From Patescibacteria group bacterium (GTDB taxonomy: Bacteria > Patescibacteriota > WWE3 > UBA101185 > 2-01-FULL-41-18), in the NCBI GenBank assembly GCA_038064575.1, contig JBBTST010000005.1, positions 1,382-65,381 of the forward strand: DNA of 64,000 nucleotides, read 5' to 3'. This document shows, piece after piece, positions 19,567 through 41,301 of this stretch. The translations under genes were made by a program, and so were the position numbers. Under the pieces are notes generated by a model. It ran no database searches. It worked only from the letters and a program-made list of their open reading frames with translations, and had not been told where the DNA came from. Position 1 is the first letter of the stretch; each line of letters opens with the position of its first letter.

Positions 19567-19603
19567 GCAGGGCCATATAAACAGGAAGAAAGGTAGTTTT
19601 TTT

Positions 19604-19870
19604 CTAACTGCAGACATTCCTAAACAAAGTACTGTACATCAATGAATCCTCTGCAACATCCATACTATTATCATTGGCAAGAGTCTTTTCCAAATTAGTC
19701 AATATCTTGAAAATATATGGGGGTACTTCCTTTTTTTGTATAGTTTTGGCTCCGGCAATTGCCTCTAATTTGAAAATCTCCGCCATTTTAAAAGATTTAC
19801 GATTAATTCCAATAGCTACTCTTAGTAAATCCATAGAAATGGAAGAAAGAGTTAATTTCACATTATTCAT
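19604..19870 (-). CDS. small hypothetical protein (88 aa)
   Basis: Second gene of a translationally coupled pair. Its start ATG overlaps the upstream stop as ATGAATAA. Confidence 0.3.
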   Translation of the reverse strand: MNNVKLTLSSISMDLLRVAIGINRKSFKMAEIFKLEAIAGAKTIQKKEVPPYIFKILTNLEKTLANDNSMDVAEDSLMYSTLFRNVCS

Positions 19871-20105
19871 AAATCTCTTTGAAAAAATGTTTTGTTAAAC
19901 TGTCATATGTTTTTTTTATTTCTGGGCTTTGAATTTCGTTGCTGGTGTTATTGTCAATGTCTATAACAGTCTTAATATATATGTCAAAACGCTCTCGTAA
20001 CTGAGTTATCTCTTCTTTTGTAAATGGTGTGGCTCTAGTTAACATCATAAAAATGATCACCTGTTTAAAGAGCTTTATTTGAGATTTGCTCAGTCCGACC
20101 TTCAA
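19863..20105 (-). CDS. small hypothetical protein (80 aa)
   Basis: First gene of an overlapping two-gene module at the left edge of the accessory region. Confidence 0.3.
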   Translation of the reverse strand: MKVGLSKSQIKLFKQVIIFMMLTRATPFTKEEITQLRERFDIYIKTVIDIDNNTSNEIQSPEIKKTYDSLTKHFFKEIYE

Positions 20106-20165
20106 ATACTATATATCTATACTACAAAATTTGTTCATCACCGCAAGAGTGTTGACCAAATTTCA

Positions 20166-20232
20166 TGGCTGAGCATGGCTGTCTAGAACCTGTTTCATTC
20201 TCCAGGCTAGAAATGAGACAAATGAAACAGTA
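20166..20232 (+). repeat. Repeat A, a tRNA-3'-end-like direct repeat. It is the partner of repeat B at 24416-24482.
   Basis: About 67 nt and roughly 80 percent identical to copy B in the same orientation. On the minus strand it reads TTCTAGACAGCCATGCTCAGCCA, which looks like T-loop, T-stem 3' strand, acceptor 3' strand, discriminator and CCA. It contains a perfect 10-bp inverted repeat CTGTTTCATT/AATGAAACAG. Confidence 0.55.
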
Positions 20233-20272
20233 TAAAAGGTGTGTTCCAAGTTTATTATGTGTTTTTATTTAG

Positions 20273-20803
20273 TTACGGGGTTGGAACTATCTGTAGTTGT
20301 TGCTCAACTTGCTGATTAGATTCTGTACCAAAAGTTACGAGAAGTTTATCGCCGTCTTTTATCTCTTGAGTAAGTGCATTGTTGCTTTGTTCATCGTTTA
20401 TATAAAACTTTAAAGTTCCACGATTTCCATTGCAAAACGTTTCTTTAGTGCCAGTAGTTAGACATTCAGACGTTAACTTGAACGGAAGTGTTGAAAAGAA
20501 ATCATTCCAAGTTGTGCCTGACTTTTTAACCTGAACTATATTTGGATTACTTGCTTCAATATACGAATCTTGAGAGAGGTTGTGATACATGCTTGCAGTA
20601 AAAATACGAAAAGTTCCGTTGGTAAAGATCGCAAAAGACGCCTTGATATCGGTAATTGGAGTTGACGTATTCTCTGTAGCTTCCATAGAGGCCCTATCTT
20701 TGGGTAAAGATGACTCAGGCGCCGGTTGTTTATTCGAAAAAAAGTAGAATGCAAAAAGAATTACTAGGATAACTATTCCACTAATACCAATAATTTTACT
20801 CAT
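20273..20803 (-). CDS. secreted hypothetical protein with a signal anchor
   Basis: 176 aa with an N-terminal hydrophobic helix. No domain recognised. Confidence 0.4.
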   Translation of the reverse strand: MSKIIGISGIVILVILFAFYFFSNKQPAPESSLPKDRASMEATENTSTPITDIKASFAIFTNGTFRIFTASMYHNLSQDSYIEASNPNIVQVKKSGTTWNDFFSTLPFKLTSECLTTGTKETFCNGNRGTLKFYINDEQSNNALTQEIKDGDKLLVTFGTESNQQVEQQLQIVPTP

Positions 20804-20837
20804 ACCTTAATAATATCCTATTTAGAATATATTCGAA

Positions 20838-21395
20838 TCAATATTTTTCATCTTGAACAAAGCGTAGAGCTACAGAATTCATGCAATACCTTTTACCAGT
20901 TGGTTCTGGCCCATCATCGAAGACATGACCCAGATGTCCTCCACAAGTATCTAATACTTCAATTCTATCGTCCCCTAAACCTGTTTCTTTCCTAAGAACA
21001 ATCGCGTTTTCATCAATTGGAGCCCAAAAACTAGGCCAACCAGTACCTGAATCATATTTTTGTTCTGATCGAAAAAGTGGTTTATCACAGCCAACACTGT
21101 AGTATGTTCCTTTTCGTTTTTCATTGTTCAATTCACCTGTAAACGGTATTTCAGTTCCTGCCTCGCGCAGTACGCGATATTGCTCAGGATTTAATATCTT
21201 TTTCCACTCCATGTCCGTTTTTTGCTTATCAGGATCAAAATTACCTGAGATAATCTGACTTGTTGTATGTTGCGGAGATGAAGTCTTTGGCAAAGCATTT
21301 TCTTGTAGACGGCTTATTAAAATTACTGCTCCTACCAAAAGAACTATTAAGGTGATGTGAAGAAATCCATTTTTGTGATTAGAATGTGTGATCAT
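20838..21395 (-). CDS. msrB: peptide-methionine (R)-S-oxide reductase MsrB, membrane-anchored and extracytoplasmic
   Basis: The SelR/MsrB core is GTYYSVGCDKPLF...GWPSFW...HLGHVFDDGP...RYCMNS, with CxxC zinc ligands. An N-terminal TM helix is present. Confidence 0.8.
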   Translation of the reverse strand: MITHSNHKNGFLHITLIVLLVGAVILISRLQENALPKTSSPQHTTSQIISGNFDPDKQKTDMEWKKILNPEQYRVLREAGTEIPFTGELNNEKRKGTYYSVGCDKPLFRSEQKYDSGTGWPSFWAPIDENAIVLRKETGLGDDRIEVLDTCGGHLGHVFDDGPEPTGKRYCMNSVALRFVQDEKY

Positions 21396-21403
21396 TATCT
21401 AAA

Positions 21404-23131
21404 TTACCCAAAAGTAAATGCAAACACTTCAGTATTATCATCTTCAAACTCTAGTCTAAGTATATGTCTACCAGGTGCAGATAGGTTAATGAGTTTGTAG
21501 AGTGTATCTTTATCAACCGTCACCACACCGTTTATATTATGCTCTCCAAAATCTTGCATCTTGCCATCTAGATATACCTTTACTTTAGCAGGTGTTCCCT
21601 TCGTGCGCATAACTAAAAATACTTCTTTTGAATCAAAATTAAGTGTAAGCGTTGATCCTTTCTGGGGACTAGCATACTCTTCCATCACATTCCAACTACC
21701 TTCGAATGCGAATTCATTAGTCCCTATATTTGTTGGTGTCGAGTATGTACTTATTGTATTTTCCTTAATAGTTTCAGGTGAAGCAAAATGCTCAATTCTT
21801 CCATAGCCTAAATATAATTCTGGTGTTCTTGCCTGTATCTGATAAGTTGGATTATTTATTTCTAAAGATACATCAGTTGCCCCAGCCTCTTTTAAAAGCT
21901 CTTGAATTACCTTTTCGCTTTCGTCATACTCTCCCTCTCCAAAATGTGTGTAGCGTATATAGCCTTCTTTGTCGATAAAGTACTTAGCTGGCCAGTAACG
22001 ATTGTTATATGCTTTCCATGTAGAAAAATCATTGTCCTGAACAATTGGATAAGTAAGCTTGAAATCTTTGATTGCCTGGGCAACATTTTTCTCACTTTTT
22101 TCAAACTCAAATTCTGGGGCGTGCACACCTATAATAACTAAGCCCTTATCTTTATACTTCTCATTCCAATCTTTAAGATACGGCAGAGTTCTTTGACAGT
22201 TAATACATGAGTACGTCCAGAAATCGATAATAACAACCTTTCCTTTTAGTTGTTCAAGTGTCAGTGGTTCGCTGTTAAACCATATACCTCCTGCAATAAT
22301 TTCTGATGCCTTTACACCTTTATTATTAAGTAGCTTAAACATCGGTTTACCCATATCCTCTTTTTTAATTTCGTTGGTAGATTTTTTATCTAATTGCTCT
22401 CGGATCAATTCATTATCTTCAAATTTAGTAAGACCTGTGCCATATTGAGGAAAAGTGTTTAGGATATATGTTTGGAATCTACGATCCACATTAAAAAATA
22501 TTCCTATGGCCGTTATAATCATTATTATTCCAAACAGTTTTTGTATTTGACCTAAGTTTGAGAGTAGCCATGGTACCCGCCTAAGTGCATTTTGACCGCC
22601 TAAAATAATCAAAAACATAGGAATAGCTGTTCCAAGAGAATAAGCGAGAGTGATTAAGAAAGCATCAAGTGTGACAGTACCCGTTATAGCAAGAGATATT
22701 ACAGAAGCAAGGATTGGCCCAACACAGGGAGTCCAGAGTAGCCCAATAGACAAACCAATTATTAAACCTCCCCTAAAGCCAGTTTTACCTTGGTTATTGG
22801 GCATACCGCTCGAAAGTTTAGAAAATAAGTTTTCAATTACTAACTGGAATTTTGGAATAAGTAAAGACAGTCCAAAACCGGCGACAACAAGTATAGAAAC
22901 TAACCTAAGCGTTTCTGCAGGAATTCCACTGATGCGTACAATGGTAGAAAGAAAAAGCGTAAAGAAAGTAAAACTAAGGATAAATCCAACAACTACGCCA
23001 ATTGGGCGAGACTTCCCTGTATTAATACCACCGACACTTGATGTGAGAATAATTGGCAATACAGGGAGAATACATGGTGAAAGTACCGTTATAATACCTG
23101 CTAAAAATGCAAATGCTAAAAGTAATATCAT
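21404..23131 (-). CDS. CcdA/DsbD-like transmembrane electron transporter fused to a TlpA/ResA-like thioredoxin domain
   Basis: 575 aa. The N-terminal polytopic region carries the two conserved Cys of CcdA/DsbD-beta. The C-terminal periplasmic domain has a WTYSCINCQ thioredoxin-fold active site. Confidence 0.7.
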   Translation of the reverse strand: MILLLAFAFLAGIITVLSPCILPVLPIILTSSVGGINTGKSRPIGVVVGFILSFTFFTLFLSTIVRISGIPAETLRLVSILVVAGFGLSLLIPKFQLVIENLFSKLSSGMPNNQGKTGFRGGLIIGLSIGLLWTPCVGPILASVISLAITGTVTLDAFLITLAYSLGTAIPMFLIILGGQNALRRVPWLLSNLGQIQKLFGIIMIITAIGIFFNVDRRFQTYILNTFPQYGTGLTKFEDNELIREQLDKKSTNEIKKEDMGKPMFKLLNNKGVKASEIIAGGIWFNSEPLTLEQLKGKVVIIDFWTYSCINCQRTLPYLKDWNEKYKDKGLVIIGVHAPEFEFEKSEKNVAQAIKDFKLTYPIVQDNDFSTWKAYNNRYWPAKYFIDKEGYIRYTHFGEGEYDESEKVIQELLKEAGATDVSLEINNPTYQIQARTPELYLGYGRIEHFASPETIKENTISTYSTPTNIGTNEFAFEGSWNVMEEYASPQKGSTLTLNFDSKEVFLVMRTKGTPAKVKVYLDGKMQDFGEHNINGVVTVDKDTLYKLINLSAPGRHILRLEFEDDNTEVFAFTFG

Positions 23132-23134
23132 AGA

Positions 23135-23677
23135 TCACTTAATATTAGAAAGTAATTCGGTTATTTTTCCACCGTTCCATTTTGTAAGCTCGTTACCCTG
23201 TTCATCTATTTGGACAAAGGTATGTTGGTAAGTAATACCATATTTTTTAGCAAGATTTTTTTCGTCTTGATCAGTTTCAGGATCATTGTAATTTACTCTA
23301 ATAACTGTAACATCTTCTGGAATACTAGATTCATCTTCTTTGAAGCTTACATCTGCAGGTTTACATGTAGGACACCAGGATGCATAAAAAAATAAAACCC
23401 TTCGACTTGTTGCTGAACCGTCAAGTACCTCTTTACTGTACATTGCATATCGTGACTTGTTTATTTTGTTTTCCATCATTTTTTCCTCAATATCTTCAGC
23501 GTCTTTTTTCATCATGGAATTTTCTGTCTCTTTTTCTGTAGGTTCTGTTACCATCGTAGTTTCTTTTGTCTTCTCCATAGAACTTTCGTTTGATGTGTTT
23601 CGAGAAACAAAATAGAATACTAATCCTGCAACTACTACAAAACTTACTATTAAAATATTTTTTATTGAATTTTTCAT
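23135..23677 (-). CDS. secreted thioredoxin-like protein
   Basis: 180 aa with a signal anchor and a WCPTCK (CxxC) thioredoxin active site. Confidence 0.6.
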   Translation of the reverse strand: MKNSIKNILIVSFVVVAGLVFYFVSRNTSNESSMEKTKETTMVTEPTEKETENSMMKKDAEDIEEKMMENKINKSRYAMYSKEVLDGSATSRRVLFFYASWCPTCKPADVSFKEDESSIPEDVTVIRVNYNDPETDQDEKNLAKKYGITYQHTFVQIDEQGNELTKWNGGKITELLSNIK

Positions 23678-23744
23678 ATATTTCTAAAATGATCCTCTTT
23701 CTTAAATAAGAATAAAGTAGTTGAAAAGTAATGTCAAGTAGACT

Positions 23745-24098
23745 TTACATTCTGAAATGAGAATAAATTCTTGAGAGTAGTTTTGAAAAAATCATGGCGC
23801 AAAGAGCCATTACTAACCAGATATCAATATTGTGTTGTAATGCTTGTATGGTTATACCCAAGATTAGAGTACCAACACCGACGAGATAAGAGATTCTTCC
23901 TGCCGTCAGAATATGTATGGATTCGCGTTCATCTGAGGACTTTTCTCTAAATAAATATGCAGCGAACGTAAGAAAAGATAAGATAAAACCCACAATCAGC
24001 ATGGATACAACACTATCAGGCATGCTTAAGTTGCCTGGATTAAGAAAAATTATAGCAATCACGAGTATTCCGATAGCACTTATAGTTTCTATTATCAT
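23745..24098 (-). CDS. small membrane protein
   Basis: 117 aa with four hydrophobic segments. Its start overlaps the stop of the XRE regulator (ATGA). Confidence 0.35.
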   Translation of the reverse strand: MIIETISAIGILVIAIIFLNPGNLSMPDSVVSMLIVGFILSFLTFAAYLFREKSSDERESIHILTAGRISYLVGVGTLILGITIQALQHNIDIWLVMALCAMIFSKLLSRIYSHFRM

Positions 24099-24307
24099 AG
24101 TAATTTCTCAATTATAAACAATTTCTCAACTGATGTATTGAAATACTTTGCTATTTTTAGGGCGAGTAGTACCGAAGGAGTATAGTTGCCTTTTTCTATT
24201 GCAATAATAGTTTGTCTTGTAACATCAACAGCTTTAGCAAGATCCTCCTGCGTGACCTTGTTTTTAGCCCTATATTCTTGCACATAATTTTTAATCTGCT
24301 CTGTCAT
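24095..24307 (-). CDS. XRE-family helix-turn-helix transcriptional regulator
   Basis: 70 aa Cro/C1-type HTH (VTQEDLAKAVDVTRQTIIAIEKGNYTPSVLLALKIAKYF). Confidence 0.7.
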   Translation of the reverse strand: MTEQIKNYVQEYRAKNKVTQEDLAKAVDVTRQTIIAIEKGNYTPSVLLALKIAKYFNTSVEKLFIIEKLL

Positions 24308-24415
24308 TGCTTTTGTATTTTAACACTTTGGTTCGAAATGAAGATATTAGGATAGAGTTTTTATCAAGCCGTTGTAATGTATTCGAATGAGATGGGTCGC
24401 TTAGGGTGCTACTTT

Positions 24416-24482
24416 TGGCTGAGCATGTCGGTCTAGAACCCATTTTACTCTCTAGGATGTAAATGAGACAAATGAGACAGTA
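24416..24482 (+). repeat. Repeat B, a tRNA-3'-end-like direct repeat and partner of repeat A
   Basis: See repeat A. On the minus strand it reads TTCTAGACCGACATGCTCAGCCA. It sits immediately 3' of the Shedu-like gene. Confidence 0.55.
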
Positions 24483-24492
24483 CTCAACTGTG

Positions 24493-25653
24493 TTATAGCT
24501 TCTCACGCGATAAGTGCATAGAAGCATTACCTCTATCTAATAAGTCTTTATATGTAATCACTTCAATACCATGTAGTGCATGATTCATCTTTCTCAGAGC
24601 ATCTCTCTTATATATGTCCCAGTTAGTACTATCGCCAATTAAAATATAGGCATGGGGTTTGAGCAAAGATAGCTCAATATTATATATTTGAGCAATATTA
24701 GGTTCAATTTCTCTTCTTAGCCTATCAACTTCACTCAAGTAATTAATAACCTGTCCTATAGCAACATTTGTTTCTGCTGACCATCGCCATGCATTAGTAT
24801 GACTAGTGTCTTTAATAATAACCTCATCTGATGGGAGTTTAATTTCCAGAATGTCTACAAATCCATCTAGTGTAGGAAATAGGTAGTCGGGCATAATACC
24901 TGTTAGATTTATCTTTGCTTTCTCAATAGGTTTTTGGTAGTTCACACCAAATAACCAGTTATTTTTATAAATCCATTTTTGCCATGAATCGTCACCTGTA
25001 GTTTCCGAATAATTACCGTGTTCTAATCTCATACCGAGTTCATCGATCACATTCTGCTTTTTGCTTTGAATTCGTGCATATGTTAATTTTTGGATTAAAG
25101 TAGGATTTGATTCTGATAGATATACCCATACGTCTTCACCATATCCCGCATCAATAAGTTTCTTAACATAAGCAACTTTATTTTCGTCTGTTATTATGAC
25201 TTTTTCTGGATCAACTATAGTGTAAGAAGTTGCATCAAAATCAATTTCTTCAATACCTTTTATAAAATTTATTAATCCAAAGAAGTTTTCATGACACGAA
25301 TCCAAATCAACTCTTGCTTTAATAAGCTTGTCATCTTGCGTTTCCTTCGAGAAATTGCTAATTGCTTTATTAGAAATGTCTCTTATTTCAAATGAAAATC
25401 GTGGTGTAAACTTTCCATTTTCCTTTTTTATTAATGTAATTACACATGACTTTTCTACCTTAGCGGATTCCTCTAAGACAAATCTTTTTATAAGACCTTT
25501 TTTTGTATTTTTGAAGTACCAAAAACCATTGGTGCCAGTTTTGTCAATCTCAATTGTTGTTAAAGAATCAGAACCAACCACAAAATCTGTGTTTTCGTAA
25601 TCAGGTTCTACCGCCCACATTTTTAGTCGTTTTCGCTGATCATCAGTTAACAT
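24493..25653 (-). CDS. Shedu-like (DUF4263) PD-(D/E)xK nuclease, candidate antiphage effector SduA
   Basis: 386 aa. The C-terminal region carries MPDYLF...(14 aa)...DILEIK, a PD / ExK triad with the spacing seen in characterised SduA. A variable N-terminal domain is typical for Shedu. Confidence 0.5.
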   Translation of the reverse strand: MLTDDQRKRLKMWAVEPDYENTDFVVGSDSLTTIEIDKTGTNGFWYFKNTKKGLIKRFVLEESAKVEKSCVITLIKKENGKFTPRFSFEIRDISNKAISNFSKETQDDKLIKARVDLDSCHENFFGLINFIKGIEEIDFDATSYTIVDPEKVIITDENKVAYVKKLIDAGYGEDVWVYLSESNPTLIQKLTYARIQSKKQNVIDELGMRLEHGNYSETTGDDSWQKWIYKNNWLFGVNYQKPIEKAKINLTGIMPDYLFPTLDGFVDILEIKLPSDEVIIKDTSHTNAWRWSAETNVAIGQVINYLSEVDRLRREIEPNIAQIYNIELSLLKPHAYILIGDSTNWDIYKRDALRKMNHALHGIEVITYKDLLDRGNASMHLSREKL

Positions 25654-25784
25654 AATTTATTATAAATCCTAAAATAGAACCTTTATTCGGAAATTTATGC
25701 AGTTCTATCGTAGATAACTTTTTTACGCGTGCCATAAGGGCATTATACGAGACAGTTCATATTTGGTCACGTCTAATGGAGTGT

Positions 25785-27461: not shown

Positions 27462-27478
27462 TCTTCTATTTTACACGC

Positions 27479-27691
27479 TCAATTAATTTTTCTGAATCTG
27501 TACTTATCTTTTATATTGTCATGGAAATATGCACCGTGGGAGCTAGAATTCATTAAGCTTCGATAAACATTTTCCGGCACATTAAAATATTGGTATATAC
27601 CACCGTCGTTAAATTCTATTTCTAAAGTTGACGTTAAGCCATCATAACCAATGGAGTCTATATTAGATGAAGTTACGTTAGTTCGTTGCAT
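27479..27691 (-). CDS. KTSC domain protein
   Basis: 70 aa matching the KTSC signature SSNI.SIGYD..T.TLEIEF.DGGIYQY..VP..VY..LMN..S.G.YF..NIK..Y. Confidence 0.6.
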   Translation of the reverse strand: MQRTNVTSSNIDSIGYDGLTSTLEIEFNDGGIYQYFNVPENVYRSLMNSSSHGAYFHDNIKDKYRFRKIN

Positions 27692-27703
27692 GTCGTTATT
27701 TTA

Positions 27704-29197: not shown

Positions 29198-29290
29198 GAG
29201 CGCAATACTCCAGTCCTTATATTGATCTGTAATTTTGATTCTTTCATATACGCATTATAGTACTAGTTAAGTCCGTAGAAACTAGTTGCT

Positions 29291-29704
29291 TTATACCCTC
29301 CTAATTTTATCTATCAAAAACTTTATATAGTAACCTTTGCTAGATTTGACCTGTATGTACATATCATTTAGTAAATAGTTTCCAAAATGTCGTGGTTCAT
29401 TGTCTTGTCGATAATAGAAAGTTATAGGGGCTCTCTTTTTGTATTGGTTAGTTAGATACTCTTTAATGTAGTCTAAATCCTGCTCTCTATTAAACCTATC
29501 TACCGTATTTCTGGCATGTTTGAGGGGTTTTGGAATCTCAGCTTTTTTTGGGATATTATTTTTGGTATTAAAGTCCCAATGTTTCGCACAATTAGGACAC
29601 TTAAAAACACTGCCCTTACTTAGGTTTAATTTTAAAGTAATACCACAGGTGCAAACCACAAATTTGTAGGAATTGTTTTCGTTAGTTTTTATATTGTAAG
29701 GCAA
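29291..29704 (-). CDS. small zinc-ribbon protein. The annotated start is TTG; the frame stays open upstream to 29908.
   Basis: 137 aa with a CTCG...CPNC ribbon. The same frame stays open for 68 more codons upstream with no ATG/GTG/TTG. That stretch encodes a second ribbon, CDIC-x17-CLDC, and overlaps the end of the helicase gene. Confidence 0.45.
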   Translation of the reverse strand: MPYNIKTNENNSYKFVVCTCGITLKLNLSKGSVFKCPNCAKHWDFNTKNNIPKKAEIPKPLKHARNTVDRFNREQDLDYIKEYLTNQYKKRAPITFYYRQDNEPRHFGNYLLNDMYIQVKSSKGYYIKFLIDKIRRV

Positions 29705-34551: not shown

Positions 34552-34815
34552 ACAGTTATTTTATCACTACTACAACATTTGGATACTATAGTATAGTAGA
34601 CACTTTTCTACACTTATCAACAGATATGCTGTCACAACAACGAATAGTGCTTGACCTGTGATTTTATTAATGCTAATTTGTATTTAGTTCTTTTGGAACT
34701 TGCGTTTGGGCGCGCACTAAAAATCCCAACTTTATAGATAAACAATCGCCTATAACAGGCACGTAGATACCACTTATAGATAACTAAGTTAATAAATTTA
34801 ATTAATGGAGGTCAT

Positions 34816-36168
34816 ATGACTAACAAACTTAGTGGTATCAATGATGCCAAGCTACAAATATTTAATTTGAACATAAAGGATATTAATCCTTCCGCCTATA
34901 ACCCTCGAAAATGGGATAAGTATAAAATTGACCAATTAACCAAAAGTATTACTGACTTTGGTGTTGTAGATCCTTTAGTAATTAATTCCGCCGAAAACAG
35001 AAAGAATATAGTTATTGGCGGTCATTTTAGACTTAAAGTCTTAAAAGAAATGGGATATATCGAAGTCCCATGTGTGTATGTAAATATCCCTGAGATTGAA
35101 CGTGAAAAAGAATTAAATTTAAGACTAAACAAAGCCGTTGGTGATTGGGATTTCAAACTTCTGGCTGAGTTTGATACATCCCTTTTATCAAACGTTGGTT
35201 TTTCAAGCGAAGAGTTAGATCAAATATTTGATATTGATGATTCACCAGAGCAATTTGATTTAGAAAAAGAACTTAATAAACTAAACATTAAAAATATCAC
35301 TATTAAAAAAGGCGATGTAATTTCTCTTGGAAATAGTAAATTAATGTGTGGGGATTCTACAGTCGAGGAGGATATGTTAAAGCTGATGAATGGAGAGAAA
35401 GCAGACATGTGCTTCACAGACCCACCCTATCTATTGGATTATTTAAACGGAAAAAAGAAAGGTGGTAAAGCAACAACAGGATTTGGAGCCAAAAGAAATC
35501 GCCGTTATCTCGAAACAGACACATTACCAGATGACTTCACAGAGAAATGGATGGCGAACATTAATAAAATCCAAAACGATAGTTTCTCCATAATAGTCTA
35601 CGAAAATTGGAAGAACATAAGAACTATTTGGGGAGAACTTGAGAAATATTGGAAGGTAAAAAACATGATTGTTTGGAGATTACCCAACAGGGTGCAGGGT
35701 TTTTCTGGTAAATATAGATTCTTTTCCAAACATGATATTGCTATGGTTGGAGCTTCACCTAACACAGATATTGAGTTCAACATGGAAACAGAGCCAGATG
35801 GTTTGCAGGAGGAATATGAAACAGCTCTTTATGCGATATCAGGTAAACCACAATGGGAAAGCTATAAAAAAGGCAAGAAGTATCAGCCAACAGACTTTAT
35901 TGATTACAAAGCCTCCGATGAAAAGAGCTCTGGGCAAGGAGTAGTATTTGGTACTAAGCCAATCGAAATATTAATACCATACATAAAAGTATTAACTAGA
36001 AGAAATGAATTAATCGTTGAACCTTTTGGTGGTAGTGGATCTACTCTTATTGCAGCAACAAAAATGAGACGTAGGTGTTATGTAATGGAGAAATCTCCTG
36101 TTTATGCTGAAGTTATTGTTAAAAGATGGGAGAAGTTAACTGGTTTAAAGGCGAAAGTTAATGCCTAA
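34816..36168 (+). CDS. ParB-like nuclease domain / DNA (amino) methyltransferase fusion
   Basis: 450 aa. The N-terminal ParB/Srx fold is present (DPLVIN...GGHFRLKVLKEMGY). The C-terminal MTase has motif IV DPPY (MCFTDPPYL) and motif I FGGSGST, a beta-class order consistent with N6-adenine (or N4-cytosine) methylation. Confidence 0.75.
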   Translation: MTNKLSGINDAKLQIFNLNIKDINPSAYNPRKWDKYKIDQLTKSITDFGVVDPLVINSAENRKNIVIGGHFRLKVLKEMGYIEVPCVYVNIPEIEREKELNLRLNKAVGDWDFKLLAEFDTSLLSNVGFSSEELDQIFDIDDSPEQFDLEKELNKLNIKNITIKKGDVISLGNSKLMCGDSTVEEDMLKLMNGEKADMCFTDPPYLLDYLNGKKKGGKATTGFGAKRNRRYLETDTLPDDFTEKWMANINKIQNDSFSIIVYENWKNIRTIWGELEKYWKVKNMIVWRLPNRVQGFSGKYRFFSKHDIAMVGASPNTDIEFNMETEPDGLQEEYETALYAISGKPQWESYKKGKKYQPTDFIDYKASDEKSSGQGVVFGTKPIEILIPYIKVLTRRNELIVEPFGGSGSTLIAATKMRRRCYVMEKSPVYAEVIVKRWEKLTGLKAKVNA

Positions 36169-36538
36169 GCGTACTAAATATGTTGAGGATAAAATACAGG
36201 AGGATAAGGACAGACTCCTAGCTGAATTGGAAAAAATGCCTGTAGTTGAGGTAGCTTGTAAAAGAACTGGTATATGTAGAGCTACCTACTATCGTTGGAT
36301 TAATGAAGACAAGGCTTTTAGCCAATCAGCACGTATAGCTCAAATAGAAGGTATTAAGTTAATAAATGACGCAATGGAATCTACACTAATTTCGTTAGCT
36401 TTAGAAAATAGAAGCATGGGTGCTATCAGGTTTTGGCTTGAAAATAGACACGCTGATTACAAGCAAAACAAAGAGCTAGAGAGGTCTAGGAAGCTGAAGA
36501 ATAATTTTACTAAGCTATCCAGACCGGATATCTATTAG
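36161..36538 (+). CDS. terminase small subunit-like HTH DNA-binding protein
   Basis: 125 aa with an N-terminal HTH (VACKRTGICRATYYRWINED) and a C-terminal RFWLENRHADY, reminiscent of phage TerS (Terminase_2-like) proteins. It overlaps the MTase stop by 8 nt, consistent with an operon. Confidence 0.4.
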   Translation: MPKRTKYVEDKIQEDKDRLLAELEKMPVVEVACKRTGICRATYYRWINEDKAFSQSARIAQIEGIKLINDAMESTLISLALENRSMGAIRFWLENRHADYKQNKELERSRKLKNNFTKLSRPDIY

Positions 36539-36569
36539 TAGATAGCGTTATTTTGTTATAATCACATTA

Positions 36570-36690
36570 GAAAAATTAACAGCCGCGAAAAAAAATCCAC
36601 TGTAAAAAGTGGTGCATGGAACCTGAAAAGGGGCTACCCTATTGGGTTTCATGCTTCGCGGCTGTTACTACAAGGGTAGTCCCTTTTTGT
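36570..36690 (+). other. structured RNA-like element ending in a U-tract (candidate ncRNA / attenuator / intrinsic terminator)
   Basis: It is preceded by an extended -10 promoter, TGTTATAAT, at 36553-36561. An 11-bp outer stem pairs ACAGCCGCGAA with TTCGCGGCTGT. It encloses a CCACT/AGTGG hairpin and a 10-bp stem GCATGGAACC/GGTTTCATGC. A loop segment, GGGCTACCCT, is complementary to the downstream AGGGTAGTCCC, which is followed by TTTTTGTTTG. Confidence 0.35.
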
Positions 36691-36782
36691 TTGTGGTAAC
36701 AATTAGCGAACTCATGCAAAACCTTGCATATATACCTTTGTAGCGTCATCAATGTCGCAGTAATAATTTATAGGAGGTATAT

Positions 36783-37325
36783 ATGTATTTATACGAGGCT
36801 AAAAAATTTAATGTTAAGTACATTACAGGTATAGGAGCAGTCACTAAGCCTACAGATAGTTATTTGTTATCTATAGAAAGTGAAGGAATAAAACTTTGGC
36901 GTCTTCTATCACCAACAGTATTAATAAAATGGACAGATATTCAGAAAATTTCCTCAGAAACACAAAATGAAGCATCCAAGTCCTTATCAATGGGCAAAGC
37001 TGCAGTAGGTTTAGTATTACTGGGACCGCTCGGTGCCTTAATAGGAGCAGGAATGGGGTCTAAAAAGCCACTCTTTGTTTCTATTTCTTACAAAGACTCG
37101 TATGGAGAAATTTGCGAGTGCTTGGTGCAAACTAAACAAGCACATGAAATAGCTACGAAACTAAACAACGAGAGAAAAGAATATTATAGAAAAAACAATA
37201 TTCCACTAACAACTGAAACGGTTTCAAATTTAGATCAGCTTGAAAAGCTAGCAGAACTTAAAGATAAAGGTGTTATTTCTTCGGATGAGTTTGAGGCTAA
37301 GAAGAAACAATTACTAGACTTGTAA
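36783..37325 (+). CDS. SHOCT-domain protein
   Basis: 180 aa with a central hydrophobic Gly-rich segment and a C-terminal SHOCT motif (LEKLAELKDKGVISSDEFEAKKKQLL). Confidence 0.5.
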   Translation: MYLYEAKKFNVKYITGIGAVTKPTDSYLLSIESEGIKLWRLLSPTVLIKWTDIQKISSETQNEASKSLSMGKAAVGLVLLGPLGALIGAGMGSKKPLFVSISYKDSYGEICECLVQTKQAHEIATKLNNERKEYYRKNNIPLTTETVSNLDQLEKLAELKDKGVISSDEFEAKKKQLLDL

Positions 37326-38111
37326 ATTTCTAGCTAATCTTTCTGAGTCAGTGGTTTCTTTTTGTTTTATTTGAGCATAAATTTCCTGTTTTTTCTTTTC
37401 CCTGTCGGCAATGGCGATTTCATGCTCGATGATCCGATAACCTTGTAGAGCTTTTTTAAAAGCAGTTCTATCACTTTCTCTTTCTAACAAAAGTACTATG
37501 TATGCATTTAAAGATATATTTTCATCTAATGCGATATTCTTAAGAAAACTAGCTAACCCTTCCATATTTTCTGCTAAGTGCTCAAAATTTTTCACAGCAA
37601 CATTAATACCTGAAAGTAATGCAGTATTTAGACTATCTAATAACCTATTAATAGTTTCCGTATCTGTATTTATTCGCTCAATTGTTAACCAGTAGTCAGA
37701 CACTTCGTTTATTAGATTTATATCACCTAAATCTAGTTCTATGTCCTCAAGAATTTTAAGCTTTGGAAATCTATGAGCTGGCATTACTGGAGGATTCTGT
37801 CTTAGTTTCTGTACTGAACTTTCAAGAGAATATACAAGCCTACTGATGTTATCCTGCTGTTTTACAATTGTATATTCAACCCTTACCAAGGCATCATGAT
37901 GCCTTTTATATCTAGTCCGCCTTTTGTCTTGTTCACTGGAAAGTCTTTCAAACAAAAATGCAAAGAATGCTCCCGAAAAGCCTCCTAAAAAAGCAATCCA
38001 TGCTTCTCTGGAAAAGTTTTGATTAGTCTGATTAATAAGGGTTTCTAGATTAGATATTAGTTTATCCATATCTTGAATGTTTATTTGCTGTTGTGACTGA
38101 AACCAATGCAT
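37314..38111 (-). CDS. hypothetical protein with an N-terminal TM helix
   Basis: 265 aa, coiled-coil rich, with no domain recognised. Convergent with the SHOCT gene, overlapping by 12 nt. Confidence 0.35.
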   Translation of the reverse strand: MHWFQSQQQINIQDMDKLISNLETLINQTNQNFSREAWIAFLGGFSGAFFAFLFERLSSEQDKRRTRYKRHHDALVRVEYTIVKQQDNISRLVYSLESSVQKLRQNPPVMPAHRFPKLKILEDIELDLGDINLINEVSDYWLTIERINTDTETINRLLDSLNTALLSGINVAVKNFEHLAENMEGLASFLKNIALDENISLNAYIVLLLERESDRTAFKKALQGYRIIEHEIAIADREKKKQEIYAQIKQKETTDSERLARNLQV

Positions 38112-38171
38112 GCGAGGATTTTACCACTACCTATGGACTTTCTTAAGTTATTGCGTCATCCATTGGTATAG

Positions 38172-39467
38172 ATGACGCAGAATACAATCTCGCCAAAATA
38201 CTGTTTATACGCTCGTAAAAGCTCCGAATCGGACGAGAGGCAAGCCATGTCAATCGATTCACAAATCAAGGAAATGACGGCACTAGCCGAAAAAGAAGGT
38301 ATAGAAATAGTAGATATAAAGCAGGAAAGCCATTCGGCAAAGATTTCAGGTTCCAGACCACTATTTCTAGAAATGATAAAGGAGCTAAACTACGGAAAGT
38401 ACAATGCTATTCTAACCTGGGCACCTGATAGGTTAAGCAGAAACGCTGGGGATTTAGGCTCACTAGTAGACCTTATGGACAGGGTTAAGCTCTTACATAT
38501 AAGGACTATATCTCAATCTTTTTCAAACAATCCAAACGAAAAGTTTCTACTGATGATTCTCTGCTCACAAGCAAAGCTTGAAAATGACAACAGAGGTTTA
38601 AATGTCAAAAGAGGTATAAGAACAAAATGTGAGATGGGCTGGCGACCCTGCCCTGCTCCTATTGGTTATATCAACTATTCTCATGGCGGAACTAAAAAGG
38701 TAATGGTAAACAAAGAGGTAGCCCCATTAGTAAAAGAACTTTTCGATTTAGTAGCTACGAAAAAGTACAGCGGTAGGGACATAAAAAAGTATCTGGATAA
38801 AGATGGAAGATTAAACAAAGCTACTGGAAAGAAAATACCATTAAGCATGATTTACAGAATGCTAAAAACACCTTTCTACTACGGTGAGTTCCAATATCCA
38901 GAAGGTGATGGCCCTTGGTATAAAGGTGCTCACGAACCAATTATTCCAAAATGGCTCTTTGATAAAGTCCAACAAAAGCTGGTAGTACCTAGAAAGTCTA
39001 AGTGGGGCGCTAAAGACTTTTTATTTAAGAATGTTTTCAGGTGCGCTTACTGCGGAGCAACCATAGTAGGAGAAGAAAAATTCAAGATGCTTAAAGTAGG
39101 CCAGAAACGAACTTATATTTACTATCACTGCACAAAACAAGTAGATGCAGAGTGTCCCGAAATGTATGTAGCAGAAAACATACTAATTGGATCCTTGATT
39201 AGCTACATACAGCTTATTGAAGTAAAAAAGCCAGACACATTACAACTAACAAATGAAGTAAAAAAGAGCATGAGGAAGTTTTCAGGTCTAAGAGCGCATT
39301 TACTAACTGAACAAAATGTAACGTTACCTGCAGAGTTAACATTTACTGAATACCTAAAATACATTATTTACAACGGAACGGATACTGAGAAACACGAAGT
39401 AATTGAATCACTTCCAAAACCACTATATATACATAATGGCACTATTTATTCACATCCTTTAGGATAA
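38172..39467 (+). CDS. large serine recombinase (resolvase/integrase family)
   Basis: 431 aa. The N-terminal resolvase catalytic domain has the nucleophile serine context YARKSSESDE...SIDSQ. A recombinase domain and a C-terminal zinc ribbon (CAYCG...YYHCTKQ) follow, as in large serine recombinases. Confidence 0.8.
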   Translation: MTQNTISPKYCLYARKSSESDERQAMSIDSQIKEMTALAEKEGIEIVDIKQESHSAKISGSRPLFLEMIKELNYGKYNAILTWAPDRLSRNAGDLGSLVDLMDRVKLLHIRTISQSFSNNPNEKFLLMILCSQAKLENDNRGLNVKRGIRTKCEMGWRPCPAPIGYINYSHGGTKKVMVNKEVAPLVKELFDLVATKKYSGRDIKKYLDKDGRLNKATGKKIPLSMIYRMLKTPFYYGEFQYPEGDGPWYKGAHEPIIPKWLFDKVQQKLVVPRKSKWGAKDFLFKNVFRCAYCGATIVGEEKFKMLKVGQKRTYIYYHCTKQVDAECPEMYVAENILIGSLISYIQLIEVKKPDTLQLTNEVKKSMRKFSGLRAHLLTEQNVTLPAELTFTEYLKYIIYNGTDTEKHEVIESLPKPLYIHNGTIYSHPLG

Positions 39468-39484
39468 AAAGTTATACTGTTAGC

Positions 39485-39952
39485 ATGGAATATAAATTAA
39501 CCCCAGAGATAATTACGTTGCACAGATATTTTATTTGGGCGGACAGAATGCGTGTGCATTTTGATGAAGTTTTAAGTAATAATAAAAATACAACAACTAT
39601 AGAAACTGAAGAATTTATAGAGAAGAAAAAAGGTATTGATACATTCTTATACATGTCCTTATGGTACGGAACATTTTATGTACTTATTGAGGGTTGGATT
39701 GAACTAGGATTGTCTGACCCAGAAATAGATACATTTTTAAAATCTCCAAACGTTAATTTACTAAGACGTTATAGGAATGGAGCATTTCATTTTCAAAAAG
39801 ATTATTTCGACAAACACTTCACAGAATTGATGACTGAAGGTGAAGACTTTGCAAATTGGTCACGAGACCTACGAGATCACATTAGTAGATGGTTTTTAGA
39901 CATTCATAGGCAATCGAAAGAGGAACAGGGACTCGAACCGTCAAGCACATGA
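39485..39952 (+). CDS. hypothetical protein (155 aa)
   Basis: ORF immediately downstream of the recombinase. No domain recognised. Confidence 0.3.
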   Translation: MEYKLTPEIITLHRYFIWADRMRVHFDEVLSNNKNTTTIETEEFIEKKKGIDTFLYMSLWYGTFYVLIEGWIELGLSDPEIDTFLKSPNVNLLRRYRNGAFHFQKDYFDKHFTELMTEGEDFANWSRDLRDHISRWFLDIHRQSKEEQGLEPSST

Positions 39953-40054
39953 GTTTATCAAGCAACAAAAGGCAAAAGTACGTTTCGGAAGATTTTGAAA
40001 ATTGTGGATAATATCAAGCCTTAACAAGCTATTCTAGGCTCTGTGATCGCGTTT

Positions 40055-40128
40055 ATGCAGTTCTTGGCTGGGGAGCAGGGATTCGAACCCCAATAGGCAG
40101 CTCCAAAAGCTGCTGTCCTACCATTAGA
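40055..40128 (-). tRNA. tRNA-Gln (anticodon UUG)
   Basis: Hand-folded. A U1-A72 acceptor (TGGGGAG/CTCCCCA) with discriminator G and encoded CCA, as in bacterial tRNA-Gln. The anticodon stem is GCAGC/GCTGC with loop TTTTGGA. T-arm is GGGGTTCGAATCCC. Confidence 0.85.
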
Positions 40129-40276
40129 CGACTCCCCATCATTTCAAAACACCTTCAAATACCAAGAAGATTATATCATTTAGATGTAACTACTAATTAA
40201 TATAGGAAAACTAGCATTTTCTTCTGGTATCTATTCTAACAATTATATAGTCCGCAAACTTTGCTATAATTTTCTT

Positions 40277-40669: not shown

Positions 40670-40685
40670 TAATTATAACCCTATA

Positions 40686-41294: not shown

Positions 41295-41301
41295 CTTTTC
41301 A

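What the first reader, a model, noticed from the sequence alone, without database searches (positions are those of the whole stretch)
19570..40130. About 20 kb composite accessory island next to tRNA-Gln with a large serine recombinase, TerS-like gene and defence cargo (possible phage-satellite-like element)
From the end of the acyltransferase gene to tRNA-Gln, gene content switches from housekeeping to accessory. In order it carries: an overlapping small-gene pair, two tRNA-3'-end-like repeats, a redox-repair cassette, the Shedu-like gene, the nuclease/KTSC/zinc-ribbon operon, the helicase-nuclease, the ParB-MTase, a terminase-small-subunit-like HTH gene, SHOCT, and a large serine recombinase about 600 nt from the 3' end of tRNA-Gln.

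Integrase plus TerS-like plus defence cargo with no structural phage genes is the layout of phage-inducible chromosomal islands / satellites that hitch-hike on helper phages while carrying antiphage systems.
Basis: inference. Interest (0 to 1): 0.65.

Follow-up and report, generated by a model that had tools for sequence, protein, structure and literature searches.

The report
Tandem serine-recombinase island at tRNA-Gln
The roughly 20 kb region is a real mobile island in an uncultured groundwater bacterium: two tandem units inserted at the end of a tRNA-Gln gene by a large serine recombinase, from a widespread, apparently undescribed family that carries phage DNA-packaging genes and anti-phage defence cargo but no virus-particle genes.

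Summary
The recombinase has its catalytic serine and ends 598 nt from tRNA-Gln.

The window comes from a Patescibacteria (CPR) genome from Hainich groundwater. More than 35 public contigs share a backbone of ParB-methyltransferase, TerS-like HTH, usually TerL, variable defence cargo, and the large serine recombinase (LSR). In 17 of 17 cases the first tRNA after the LSR points its 3' end at it. A GGTC motif sits 20-27 nt before that tRNA end in 14 of 17 cases, against 1 of 29 other tRNAs.

One relative is 96.6-99.9% identical in two different host contexts, which shows recent transfer. No capsid, portal or tail genes were found in any family member.

The two "tRNA-like repeats" match the family's left-end signature. 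I read the island as two tandem units:
- 20,166-24,415: no recombinase, redox cargo.
- 24,416-40,064: LSR, Shedu and other nuclease/helicase cargo. This copy lacks TerL.

The gene pair at 19,604-20,105 lies outside the island. No empty site or excised circle was found. Satellite-style spread in helper-phage capsids is plausible but remains an inference.

The parts
20166..20232 (+). Left junction (proposed attL, B|P'1). Contains a tRNA-3'-end mimic, TGGCTGAGCATGGCTGTCTAGAACC, at 20166-20191, and a tandem 9-mer 'X motif', AATGAGACAAATGAAACAGTA, at about 20212-20232.
   Evidence: Direct repeat D3, 67 nt, 84% identical to 24416-24482. The same mimic + X-motif signature marks the left ends of family members L039, L026/L152, L153, L154/L163, L156 and L157. 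The flank to its left has no element-end homology.
20273..24307 (-). Cargo of unit 1, which has no recombinase. One leftward gene string: HTH_3 regulator (24095-24307), 117-aa membrane protein (23745-24098), thioredoxin-like (23135-23677), DsbD_TM-thioredoxin fusion (21404-23131), MsrB (20838-21395), 176-aa unknown (20273-20803).
   Evidence: Pfam. An LSR-profile HMM on the six-frame translation of 19.5-24.5 kb gave no hit. Tetranucleotide z is about 2.9-3.4.
24325..24415 (+). Right-end-like arm of unit 1 (proposed P1): GGTTCGAA (24330-24337), ATCAAGC (24363-24369), GGGTCGCTT (24394-24402).
   Evidence: It aligns with the sequences that precede tRNA-Gln in the window, L174 and L176 (TTTTATCAAGC ... 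GGTCGC ... TGGCTG). The GGTC[GA]CTT motif occurs only once in the 64-kb window.
24416..24482 (+). Left end of unit 2 (proposed P'2). tRNA-3'-end mimic at 24416-24441 and X motif at 24462-24482.
   Evidence: L156 has the same order: GGGTCGCTT, 13 nt, mimic, X motif.
24493..25653 (-). Shedu (SduA) defence nuclease.
   Evidence: PADLOC SduA 1.6e-80. Pfam SduA_C 68.5 bits, above the cutoff of 27.
25785..29704 (-). Operon of a 137-aa protein (29291-29704), a TM0106-family RecB/Cas4-like nuclease (27704-29197), KTSC (27479-27691) and a 558-aa zinc-ribbon protein (25785-27461).
   Evidence: TIGR03491 E=4e-73. KTSC E=2.4e-27. Homologs of the 558-aa protein recur left of the ParB-MTase in L027, L030, L037, L039, L047, L054 and L153.
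29890..34551 (-). 1553-aa SF1 (Upf1-like) helicase with a C-terminal Vsr/DUF559-like nuclease motif (VDFLL...VEYDG..H). Defence-like cargo.
   Evidence: AAA_11/AAA_12. PADLOC PDC-S37 and MkoA/MkoC core. NCBIfam ProA and Hhe hits far below their cutoffs. It is 36% identical to the 1650-aa helicase at the same position in L176.
34816..36168 (+). ParB_N + N6/N4 DNA methyltransferase. First gene of the family backbone.
   Evidence: Pfam. phrog_498 E=1.6e-79. 62-72% identical homologs lie upstream of the HTH in 34 loci.
36161..36538 (+). TerS-like HTH protein. Second backbone gene.
   Evidence: Five TerS PHROGs at E=3e-4 to 4e-3. 27 of 27 homologs match PF13022 and 6 of 27 match PF20901 Sf6_terminase. 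The homolog directly precedes TerL in 23 loci.
36557..36690 (+). Conserved structured non-coding RNA candidate, with its own TATAAT box and a terminator-like 3' hairpin.
   Evidence: 72-86% identical in L174 and L176-L179. RNAalifold gives 39 pairs, 7 with compensatory double changes among 4 sequences. No Rfam family.
36783..38111 (.). Variable slot where relatives carry TerL and/or cargo. Here it holds a SHOCT protein (36783-37325, +) and a 265-aa unknown (37314-38111, -).
   Evidence: Pfam SHOCT. No TerL remnant anywhere in the window. A homolog of the 265-aa protein sits next to the LSR in L040.
38172..39467 (+). Large serine recombinase (431 aa) with the catalytic Ser in the YARKS motif.
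   Evidence: PF00239 E=1e-19, PF07508 and PF13408. phrog_95 E=2.6e-58. Alignment to SprA/YokA structures. Closest named family is CcrB, far below its cutoff.
39485..39952 (+). 155-aa unknown protein in the variable slot between the LSR and the tRNA.
   Evidence: No family hits. Not homologous to the 177-aa ORF at the same position in L174.
39957..40064 (+). Right-end arm of unit 2 (proposed P2): ATCAAGC at 39957-39963 and at 40013-40019; GATCGCG at 40045-40051, 20 nt before the tRNA 3' end.
   Evidence: 75.6% identical to the equivalent 53 nt + tRNA in L176. Alignments. GGTC lies at -18 to -32 in 14 of 17 LSR-adjacent tRNAs against 1 of 29 other tRNAs, p=4e-8.
40065..40138 (-). Intact tRNA-Gln(UUG). 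Its CCA/acceptor/T-arm end is the proposed B' half of the attachment site.
   Evidence: ARAGORN. Rfam 58 bits. The same tRNA follows the LSR in L019, L028 and L174-L179.

Best explanation
The region from about 20,166 to 40,064 is a tandem pair of integrative elements inserted at the 3' (CCA) end of tRNA-Gln(UUG) in a Patescibacteria chromosome.

Unit 2 (24,416-40,064; 15.6 kb) is a member of a large family built on a conserved backbone: ParB-methyltransferase, TerS-like HTH, usually TerL, variable cargo, then a large serine recombinase (LSR). Unit 1 (20,166-24,415; 4.25 kb) has the family's two ends but no recombinase. It resembles the ccr-less pseudo-SCC or CIME-type units known elsewhere.

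Proposed mechanism:
- The LSR recombines an element site with a chromosomal site. The element site is a P arm carrying ATCAAGC...GG(G)TCGC, joined to a P' arm that mimics a tRNA acceptor/T-arm. The chromosomal site is the tRNA trailer joined to the tRNA 3' end.
- The crossover lies in or next to the shared TGGCTG (CCA end). The tRNA therefore stays intact and no long direct repeat is made.
- A second integration, or another recombination event, at the same tRNA gave the order B|P'1 ... P1|P'2 ... P2|tRNA.
- The cargo is anti-phage: Shedu, a RecB/Cas4-like nuclease operon, and a helicase-nuclease. Unit 1 carries oxidative-repair genes.
- The methyltransferase probably protects the element's DNA in new hosts.
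- Spread between cells most likely uses helper-phage capsids through the element's terminase proteins. This copy keeps only TerS, so it would need a helper's TerL or may be immobile.

Shown: gene content, family architecture, tRNA association, end signatures, and recent transfer of a relative.

Inferred, with my estimates: crossover position; tandem-accretion history (about 0.65); satellite-type packaging (about 0.35-0.4).
For: Backbone and cargo:
- The backbone recurs in more than 35 IMG/VR and metagenome loci. Cluster counts: LSR in 38 loci, ParB-MTase in 34, HTH in 28, TerL in 23. TerL matches phrog_38 at E down to 1e-77.
- Recurrent cargo is defence-type: type I and III restriction-modification, reverse transcriptase, Sie-like protein, nucleases. 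No capsid, portal or tail family was found in any scan.
- L039 appears to show both ends in 12 kb and has no structural genes.

tRNA association:
- The first tRNA downstream of the LSR is on the opposite strand in 17 of 17 loci.
- GGTC lies 18-32 nt before the tRNA end in 14 of 17 loci, against 1 of 29 control tRNAs (p=4e-8).

Mobility of a relative:
- L176 and L178 are the same element at 96.6-99.9% nucleotide identity.
- Their host flanks differ, with tRNA-Val only 80% identical. Identity stops at tRNA-Gln.
- L176's host has the same tRNA array as the window.

End signatures:
- The left-end signature (tRNA-end mimic + AATGNGACA x2) is seen in the window twice and in L026, L039, L153, L154, L156 and L157.
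- A scan of IMG/VR for the X motif returned 19 loci, at least 4 of them on contigs already found through the LSR.
- The mimic is closer to the family consensus than to tRNA-Gln, so it is carried by the element.
- The flank left of 24416 aligns with element right ends. The flank left of 20166 does not.

Tandem arrays elsewhere:
- The L034/L026 contig holds three LSR elements.
- The L044/L157 contig has a unit without an LSR next to a full one.

Other:
- Composition is atypical from 20 to about 44 kb.
- The LSR catalytic motif is intact.
Against: - No empty site, circular junction or alternative context was found among about 20 contigs from several Hainich samples that carry identical proteins. 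The island looks fixed in this population.
- No close relative with conserved synteny was found to show an unoccupied tRNA-Gln.
- This copy lacks TerL.
- No replication module (primase, Rep) is recognisable.
- No helper phage is known.
- The whole-arm dyad-symmetry test of the proposed att sites was not significant. Only the outer GGGTCG / GGGTTCG motifs correspond.
- LSRs normally recombine only attP with attB, so tandem accretion needs a relaxed specificity or another route.
- The X motif also looks like a promoter/operator. The D3 repeats could therefore be partly regulatory.
Confidence: 0.65

Rival explanations
1. This is the same LSR-driven integrative element, but not a phage satellite. 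It moves between cells by natural transformation, vesicles or generalised transduction. The ParB-MTase/TerS/TerL module is either a leftover of phage ancestry or has another role, such as DNA processing, anti-restriction or interference with phage packaging as a defence.
For: - No replication module or capsid-remodelling genes were found.
- This copy and at least 7 relatives lack the phrog_38 TerL.
- The island appears fixed, with no excised forms.
- From general knowledge: Patescibacteria commonly encode competence machinery.
Against: - The operon ParB-MTase, HTH, TerL, LSR is retained with overlapping genes across LSRs only 42-53% identical. This argues for selection on the terminase genes.
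- The same ParB-MTase, HTH, TerL order occurs in a viral contig without an LSR (L072).
- An element that keeps its own TerS plus TerL is hard to explain without capsid packaging.
Confidence: 0.2
2. This is a decayed prophage of a temperate Patescibacteria phage. Integrase, methyltransferase and small terminase survive, and an ordinary defence island has accreted next to them.
For: - ParB-MTase, TerS and TerL are typical phage packaging-region genes.
- IMG/VR lists many relatives as viral.
- TerL is missing here.
Against: - The compact layout without structural genes is the rule in more than 30 diverged relatives, not an occasional decay product.
- L039 appears to show both ends in 12 kb.
- The compact L176/L178 element was transferred recently between hosts.
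- In a prophage, the terminase and integrase genes would normally be separated by the structural module.
Confidence: 0.08
3. Only 24.4-40.06 kb is the element. The 20.2-24.4 kb redox cassette is native chromosome, and the two D3 repeats are paralogous promoter/operator regions for two leftward operons rather than attachment-site remnants.
For: - Each D3 copy lies upstream of a minus-strand operon.
- A sigma-70-like match overlaps the X motif on the minus strand (24471-24442).
- The X motif sits 78 nt upstream of TerS-like genes in L147, L150, L159 and L161.
- GC of unit 1 (0.354) matches the genome.
Against: - The 65-90 nt left of 24416 aligns with element right ends (ATCAAGC...GGTCGC...TGGCTG), as expected for the end of another element and not for native trailer.
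- The tetranucleotide deviation already starts at 20 kb (z about 2.9-3.4).
- A unit without an LSR beside a full element recurs in the L044/L157 contig.
- The promoter-like count is not above the shuffled expectation.
Confidence: 0.07

Closest known systems
Staphylococcal cassette chromosome (SCC/SCCmec) composite islands
   Same: - Driven by large serine recombinases; CcrB is the closest named NCBIfam model to this LSR (E=1.4e-30).
- Inserted at the 3' end of a conserved housekeeping gene, which stays intact.
- Carries accessory and defence cargo.
- Forms tandem composite islands that include units without a recombinase (PsiSCC; for example 10.1101/336396).
   Different: - The target is a tRNA-Gln CCA end, not rlmH.
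- The LSR is far below the Ccr cutoffs (106 bits against 900), so it is not a Ccr.
- The backbone is ParB-MTase/TerS/TerL rather than the Cch helicase and primase genes of SCC.
- The host is Patescibacteria.
Phage-inducible chromosomal islands (PICI/SaPI-type satellites)
   Same: - 10-16 kb integrative island beside a conserved site.
- Integrase plus a small-terminase-like gene plus anti-phage cargo.
- No capsid, tail or lysis genes.
   Different: - A serine rather than a tyrosine integrase.
- No recognisable primase/Rep-ori module, master repressor or capsid-size redirection genes.
- Relatives carry a full TerS+TerL pair without capsid genes, a combination I did not find described.
- Induction by a helper phage is untested.
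PLE of Vibrio cholerae and serine-recombinase VEIMEs (marine satellites)
   Same: They are satellites that use a large serine recombinase for integration and excision and protect the host against phage (PMC9638900; PMC9618062).
   Different: - PLE integrates into repeats of the Vibrio cholerae superintegron (from general knowledge), not at tRNA ends.
- PLE has its own replication initiator and no terminase genes.
- No sequence relationship was tested beyond the shared LSR class.
Tycheposons of Prochlorococcus
   Same: - Cargo-carrying integrative elements that target tRNA genes.
- They pile up in tandem, leaving degraded units and partial tRNAs.
- They include PICI-like members with TerS or a capsid gene.
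- A minority use LSRs (10.1101/2020.12.28.424599).
   Different: - 910 of 937 use tyrosine recombinases and leave true partial-tRNA direct repeats.
- Many carry replication genes.
- In the window, the 'partial tRNA' is an element-borne mimic, and no replication genes are seen.
Temperate-phage LSR integrases (SPbeta SprA, A118, TP901-1)
   Same: Same three-domain recombinase. The best solved-structure matches are SprA/YokA, TP901-1 and A118.
   Different: - Those enzymes target sites inside protein-coding genes and belong to complete phages.
- This family is associated with tRNA 3' ends of several identities (Gln, Ser, Asn, Asp, Glu, Trp).

Membership tests
Large serine recombinase (integrase type) | N-terminal resolvase catalytic domain with the nucleophilic serine | tested here: met
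   PF00239 E=9.8e-20, above cutoff. YARKS(17) aligns with YLRRS of SprA, and the RLSR motif is present.
Large serine recombinase (integrase type) | Recombinase domain plus zinc-ribbon domain C-terminal to the catalytic domain | tested here: met
   PF07508 scores 48.5 bits against a cutoff of 21.1. PF13408 scores 24.6 bits against 25.3, which is borderline. phrog_95 integrase E=2.6e-58.
Large serine recombinase (integrase type) | Catalyses attP x attB recombination at a 2-bp crossover | not testable with these tools
   There is only indirect evidence. The arm motifs are conserved and the TGGCTG is shared at all three junctions. The dyad-symmetry test was not significant.
Phage satellite (PICI-like) | Integrase-bearing island without capsid, tail or lysis genes | tested here: met
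   Pfam, PHROG and PADLOC scans covered the window ORFs of 70 aa or more. Relatives' cargo was also scanned. No structural family was found.
Phage satellite (PICI-like) | Gene(s) that redirect helper-phage packaging (TerS or equivalent) | tested here: inconclusive
   The window's HTH has only weak TerS hits (E about 3e-4). Context in relatives is strong, since it directly precedes TerL in 23 loci. TerL is absent from the window.
Phage satellite (PICI-like) | Own replication module (primase/Rep and origin) | tested here: not met
   No primase or Rep family was found in the window. A PIF1 helicase occurs in only 3 relatives.
Phage satellite (PICI-like) | Excision, replication and packaging induced by a helper phage | not testable with these tools
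   No helper is known. No excised form was found in assembled contigs.
SCC (Ccr-type cassette chromosome) | Ccr recombinase | tested here: not met
   The best NCBIfam hit is CcrB at 106.5 bits against an equivalog cutoff of 900.
SCC (Ccr-type cassette chromosome) | Integration at the 3' end of rlmH | tested here: not met
   The island abuts tRNA-Gln.
Prophage | Portal, capsid, tail and lysis genes | tested here: not met
   None in the window or in the family members examined.
Shedu defence system | SduA protein with a DUF4263 nuclease domain | tested here: met
   PADLOC PDLC00390 E=1.6e-80. PF14082 scores 68.5 bits against a cutoff of 27.
Tycheposon | tRNA-targeting element flanked by a full and a partial copy of the target tRNA | tested here: not met
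   There is no direct repeat of tRNA-Gln of 14 nt or more. The tRNA-like pieces match the family consensus better than they match tRNA-Gln.
Terminase small subunit | N-terminal HTH protein encoded immediately upstream of TerL | tested here: inconclusive
   Met in 23 relatives and in phage-like contig L072. Not met in the window itself. The profile against PDB reaches Sf6 gp1 only at E=0.36. PF20901 matches 6 of 27 homologs.

The most novel reading that the evidence does not exclude
The island belongs to an undescribed, Patescibacteria-wide family of phage satellites with three unusual properties:
- They carry their own TerS+TerL packaging motor but no capsid genes.
- They use a large serine recombinase whose attachment site is the universally conserved CCA/acceptor/T-arm end of tRNA genes. 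The element carries a mimic of that end, which lets lineages switch between tRNA-Gln, Ser, Asn, Asp, Glu and Trp.
- They build defence islands by tandem accretion, leaving units without a recombinase that can be mobilised in trans.
Probability: 0.3. Interest if true: 0.8.

Novelty: new variant of a known kind. Interest (0 to 1): 0.64.

Why it matters
Mobile elements of the Candidate Phyla Radiation are barely charted, although these bacteria make up a large share of groundwater diversity.

If the reading holds, four things follow:
- **A vehicle for defence genes.** A single backbone of methyltransferase, terminase genes and serine recombinase shuttles restriction-modification, Shedu, reverse-transcriptase and nuclease systems between divergent Patescibacteria. 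That would explain how their small genomes acquire defence islands.
- **A new style of capsid piracy.** A satellite with its own TerS+TerL but no capsid genes would sit between SaPI-type islands, which carry TerS only, and capsid-forming PICIs.
- **A possible tool.** A serine integrase that recognises tRNA 3' ends with a site of roughly 50 bp and leaves the tRNA intact could be a useful source of integration tools. It is also unusual for this enzyme class.
- **A parallel with SCCmec.** The tandem arrangement with a unit that lacks a recombinase extends that kind of island-building to a distant phylum.

The conserved structured RNA inside the element is a further testable lead.

Tried and rejected
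**Empty-site searches (all failed)**
- SHMT was searched in the GTDB species representatives. The best matches are 75-76% identical and there is no synteny.
- Homologs of the VOC gene next to tRNA-Gln are 74-81% identical but sit in unrelated contexts with no tRNA.
- The single metagenome scan used the L176 host gene DUF2207. It returned only hits of 43% identity or less, and none had the tRNA array next to an LSR.
- Exact-protein look-ups of the LSR, VOC, acyltransferase, HTH and MsrB gave only the same context.

**Other negative results**
- A direct repeat of tRNA-Gln as an att core: none of 14 nt or more. A 13-nt match (TTTATGCAGTTCT at 25694) is at chance level and is not followed by TGG.
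- A TerL remnant in the window: none.
- Viral-contig scans with the 558-aa protein and with the helicase: no relatives.
- My idea that each att site is a 48-bp imperfect inverted repeat failed an ungapped symmetry test against random positions. I keep only the correspondence of the outer motifs.

**A correction to my own earlier reading**
- I first read the 6.5-kb middle unit of the L034/L026 contig as lacking an LSR. It actually encodes a divergent 570-aa LSR. That contig is therefore a three-element array, not an example of a unit without an LSR.

**Left end of the L176 element**
- Walking left from its helicase reached only more restriction-modification cargo before the contig ended.

**Smaller points**
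- A tRNA-like piece at 39918-39945, inside the 155-aa ORF, does not form a T-arm. I treat it as unexplained.
- Contig breaks at about 21,075 and about 37,160 in several assemblies led to no alternative structure.

Full report
**Source and observation**

The window is a Patescibacteria (CPR) chromosome segment.
- Identical proteins occur on Hainich aquifer metagenome contigs and are labelled 'Patescibacteria group bacterium'.
- The nearest species-level genomes share only 75-76% SHMT identity.

- MsrB, a DsbD-thioredoxin fusion, a thioredoxin-like protein and an HTH_3 regulator.
- Shedu SduA (PADLOC 1.6e-80).
- A 558-aa zinc-ribbon protein, KTSC, and a TM0106-family RecB/Cas4-like nuclease (TIGR03491, 4e-73).
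- A 1553-aa SF1 helicase with a Vsr/DUF559-like C-terminus.
- A ParB-methyltransferase (phrog_498, 1.6e-79) and a small HTH with weak TerS hits.
- SHOCT and a 431-aa large serine recombinase (LSR).

The LSR has the YxRxS catalytic motif aligned to SprA. It ends 598 nt from the 3' end of tRNA-Gln(UUG). The two tRNA-like repeats are 67 nt long and 84% identical, at 20166 and 24416. GC barely changes. Tetranucleotide composition deviates by z=2.5-5.8 from 20 kb to about 44 kb. With 12 tRNAs in 64 kb, proximity to a tRNA is weak evidence by itself.

**A recurrent element family**

I scanned IMG/VR with the LSR and with the ParB-methyltransferase and ran tblastn and clustering on the hits. The same ordered module appears in more than 35 contigs: ParB-MTase, HTH, then the LSR 0-8 kb downstream.

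In 23 loci the HTH gene overlaps the start of a roughly 500-aa gene. This is a terminase large subunit (phrog_38, E down to 1e-77). Three further loci carry a T4-type TerL instead.

The slots between TerL and the LSR, after the LSR, and left of the methyltransferase hold variable cargo:
- type I and type III restriction-modification systems;
- Eco57I-like and SNF2-PLD enzymes;
- reverse transcriptases and a Sie-like protein;
- HNH and DUF2779/Cas4 nucleases, and ABC-type ATPases;
- a CI/LexA-like repressor.

None of about 50 cargo proteins scanned matched a capsid, portal, tail or lysis family. L039, whose two ends appear to lie 12 kb apart, has none. The window has no TerL and no remnant of one. 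At least 7 relatives also lack the phrog_38 TerL. A phage-like contig without an LSR (L072) has the same ParB-MTase, HTH, TerL order, so the module derives from a phage packaging region.

The LSR family is very large, with at least 8000 proteins at E<1e-30. The named members are Patescibacteria.

**Association with tRNA ends**

In 17 of 17 loci that show a tRNA after the LSR, the tRNA is on the opposite strand, with its 3' end facing the LSR. Targets are Gln, Ser, Asn, Asp, Glu and Trp. The closest relatives of the window's LSR all sit at tRNA-Gln(UUG): 82% identity in L174/L175 and 67% in L176-L179.

L176's host has the same tRNA array as the window (Gln-Val-Phe-...-Gly-Leu-Leu-Lys-Arg), so the site is orthologous.

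A (G)GGTC motif lies 20-27 nt before the tRNA 3' end in 14 of 17 LSR-adjacent tRNAs. It does so in only 1 of 29 other tRNAs in the same sequences (Fisher p=4e-8). The motif does not depend on tRNA identity, so it belongs to the element. The window's copy reads GATC at -20.

**Direct evidence of mobility in a relative**

L176 and L178 encode the identical LSR. Their helicase-MTase-HTH-TerL block is 96.6% identical, and the LSR-to-tRNA-Gln block is 99.87% identical. Identity stops at the 5' end of tRNA-Gln. Beyond it the hosts differ: tRNA-Val is 80% identical and the neighbouring genes are different. The cargo between TerL and the LSR is also swapped. This is a recent transfer of a compact element that has no structural genes.

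**Ends of the window's island**

Left ends of family members share a signature. It is a 25-nt mimic of a tRNA acceptor/T-arm 3' end (consensus TGGCGGAGCACCNNGGTCTGGAACC), followed 20-90 nt later by a tandem 9-mer, AATGNGACA x2.
- The signature occurs in L026/L152, L039, L153, L154/L163, L156 and L157.
- An exact-pattern scan of IMG/VR for the 9-mer pair gave 19 loci. At least 4 lie on contigs already recovered through the LSR.
- Both D3 copies in the window carry this signature.
- The mimic matches the family consensus (about 20 of 25) better than it matches tRNA-Gln (17 of 26). Elements at different tRNAs share it. It is therefore carried by the element and is not a displaced tRNA fragment.

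The 65-90 nt left of the second copy (24325-24415) align with the sequences that precede tRNA-Gln in the window, L174 and L176 (TTTTATCAAGC ... GGTCGC ... TGGCTG). This stretch is an element right end. The flank left of the first copy has no such similarity.

The simplest reading is B|P'1 - unit 1 - P1|P'2 - unit 2 - P2|tRNA-Gln. All three junctions share TGGCTG. The crossover probably lies at the CCA end, which leaves the tRNA intact and makes no long direct repeat.

Unit 1 (20,166-24,415) has no recombinase (HMM search). Tandem arrays recur elsewhere:
- three LSR elements in the L034/L026 contig;
- a unit without an LSR beside a full one in the L044/L157 contig.

The gene pair at 19,604-20,105 is outside the island.

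**Limits**

- I could not find an empty site or an excised circle. The island looks fixed in this population.
- The proposed half-site symmetry did not pass a whole-arm test.
- The 9-mer motif also resembles an operator/promoter. It lies 78 nt upstream of TerS-like genes in four viral contigs, and a sigma-70-like match overlaps it.
- Tandem accretion is not standard LSR behaviour.
- No replication module or helper phage is known.
- TerS identity rests on context plus weak profile hits.

**Comparison with known systems**

The element works most like two known kinds.
- SCC-type composite islands: LSR-driven, inserted at the 3' end of a conserved gene, with tandem units that lack a recombinase (10.1101/336396).
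- PICI/PLE-type satellites: integrase plus packaging gene plus defence cargo, with no structural genes. PLE also uses an LSR (PMC9638900).

Tycheposons share tRNA targeting and tandem decay (10.1101/2020.12.28.424599).

The element is not a member of any of these families.
- The CcrB score is 106 bits against a cutoff of 900.
- The target is not rlmH.
- There is no true partial-tRNA repeat.
- There is no replication module.

Literature searches found no description of a Patescibacteria family of LSR, terminase and methyltransferase elements at tRNA ends.

**Verdict**

Its boundaries are about 20,166 and 40,064. It belongs to a widespread, apparently undescribed family. Satellite-type spread is plausible (about 0.35-0.4) but unproven. 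I rate it a new variant of a known kind, with interest 0.64.

Noticed in passing
window 36557-36690 (+): A conserved, structured non-coding RNA candidate lies between the TerS-like gene and the SHOCT gene. It has its own TATAAT box, a 14-bp closing stem, a fully compensated variable hairpin and a terminator-like 3' end. There is a possible alternative pairing between GGGGCUACCC and GGGUAGUCCC. It is 72-86% identical in L174 and L176-L179, where it follows TerL. It matches no Rfam family.
   Followed up: partly
window 40139-43620; repeats at 41265-41301, 42619-42655, 42511-42624, 43437-43550: The tRNA array to the right of the island looks like a cargo hotspot with several insertion sites. In L176, tRNA-Gln, Val and Phe are nearly adjacent. 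In the window, a VOC gene sits on the 3' side of tRNA-Val, and glyoxalase, SHMT and a 265-aa gene sit on the 3' side of tRNA-Phe. They are bracketed by fragments resembling the tRNA-Phe 3' end and by duplicated trailers of 75-114 nt. Composition stays atypical to about 44 kb.
   Followed up: partly
window 13599-13687 (+); also L033 15932-16019: ARAGORN calls a tRNA-Ser with anticodon ACT (A at the wobble position). This is unusual for bacteria. The same anticodon appears in a related contig.
   Followed up: no
L176 8825-9983 vs L178 5776-6958: Two copies of the same element, 96.6-99.9% identical, differ only in the slot just upstream of the LSR: a 361-aa protein in one, and DUF4352 + DUF1508 in the other. 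This slot appears to be a hotspot for cargo exchange. In the window, the equivalent slot holds SHOCT and the 265-aa gene.
   Followed up: partly
L147 3063-3083, L150, L159, L161 (IMG/VR contigs): The tandem 9-mer motif (AATGCGACA x2, followed by CTATAAAAAAGG) lies 78 nt upstream of a TerS-like HTH gene in contigs without the LSR. The motif may be an operator or a pac-type site bound by the HTH protein.
   Followed up: no
window about 21075 and about 37160: Contigs from independent assemblies of the same population end at these two positions: L137/L138 inside MsrB, and L002/L004/L167 inside the SHOCT gene. No alternative sequence path was found. This may reflect micro-heterogeneity or a coverage effect.
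   Followed up: partly
window 19604-20105 (-): An overlapping pair of small genes (88 and 80 aa) has no family hits. It lies between the acyltransferase gene and the island's left junction. It may be native, or a remnant of an older insertion.
   Followed up: no
window 39918-39945 (+), inside the end of the 155-aa ORF: A stretch resembling a tRNA T-arm (GAACAGGGACTCGAACCGTCAAGC) lies 120 nt from tRNA-Gln. It does not fold as a T-arm. Similar fragments lie 70-80 nt from the tRNA in L023 and L033.
   Followed up: partly
L044 8859-9929 and four other loci; L031 4094-4738: A reverse transcriptase gene (RVT_1) recurs immediately upstream of the LSR in five family members. One member encodes a CI/LexA-like repressor with an S24 peptidase, divergent from the methyltransferase gene. 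This hints at an SOS-type switch.
   Followed up: no
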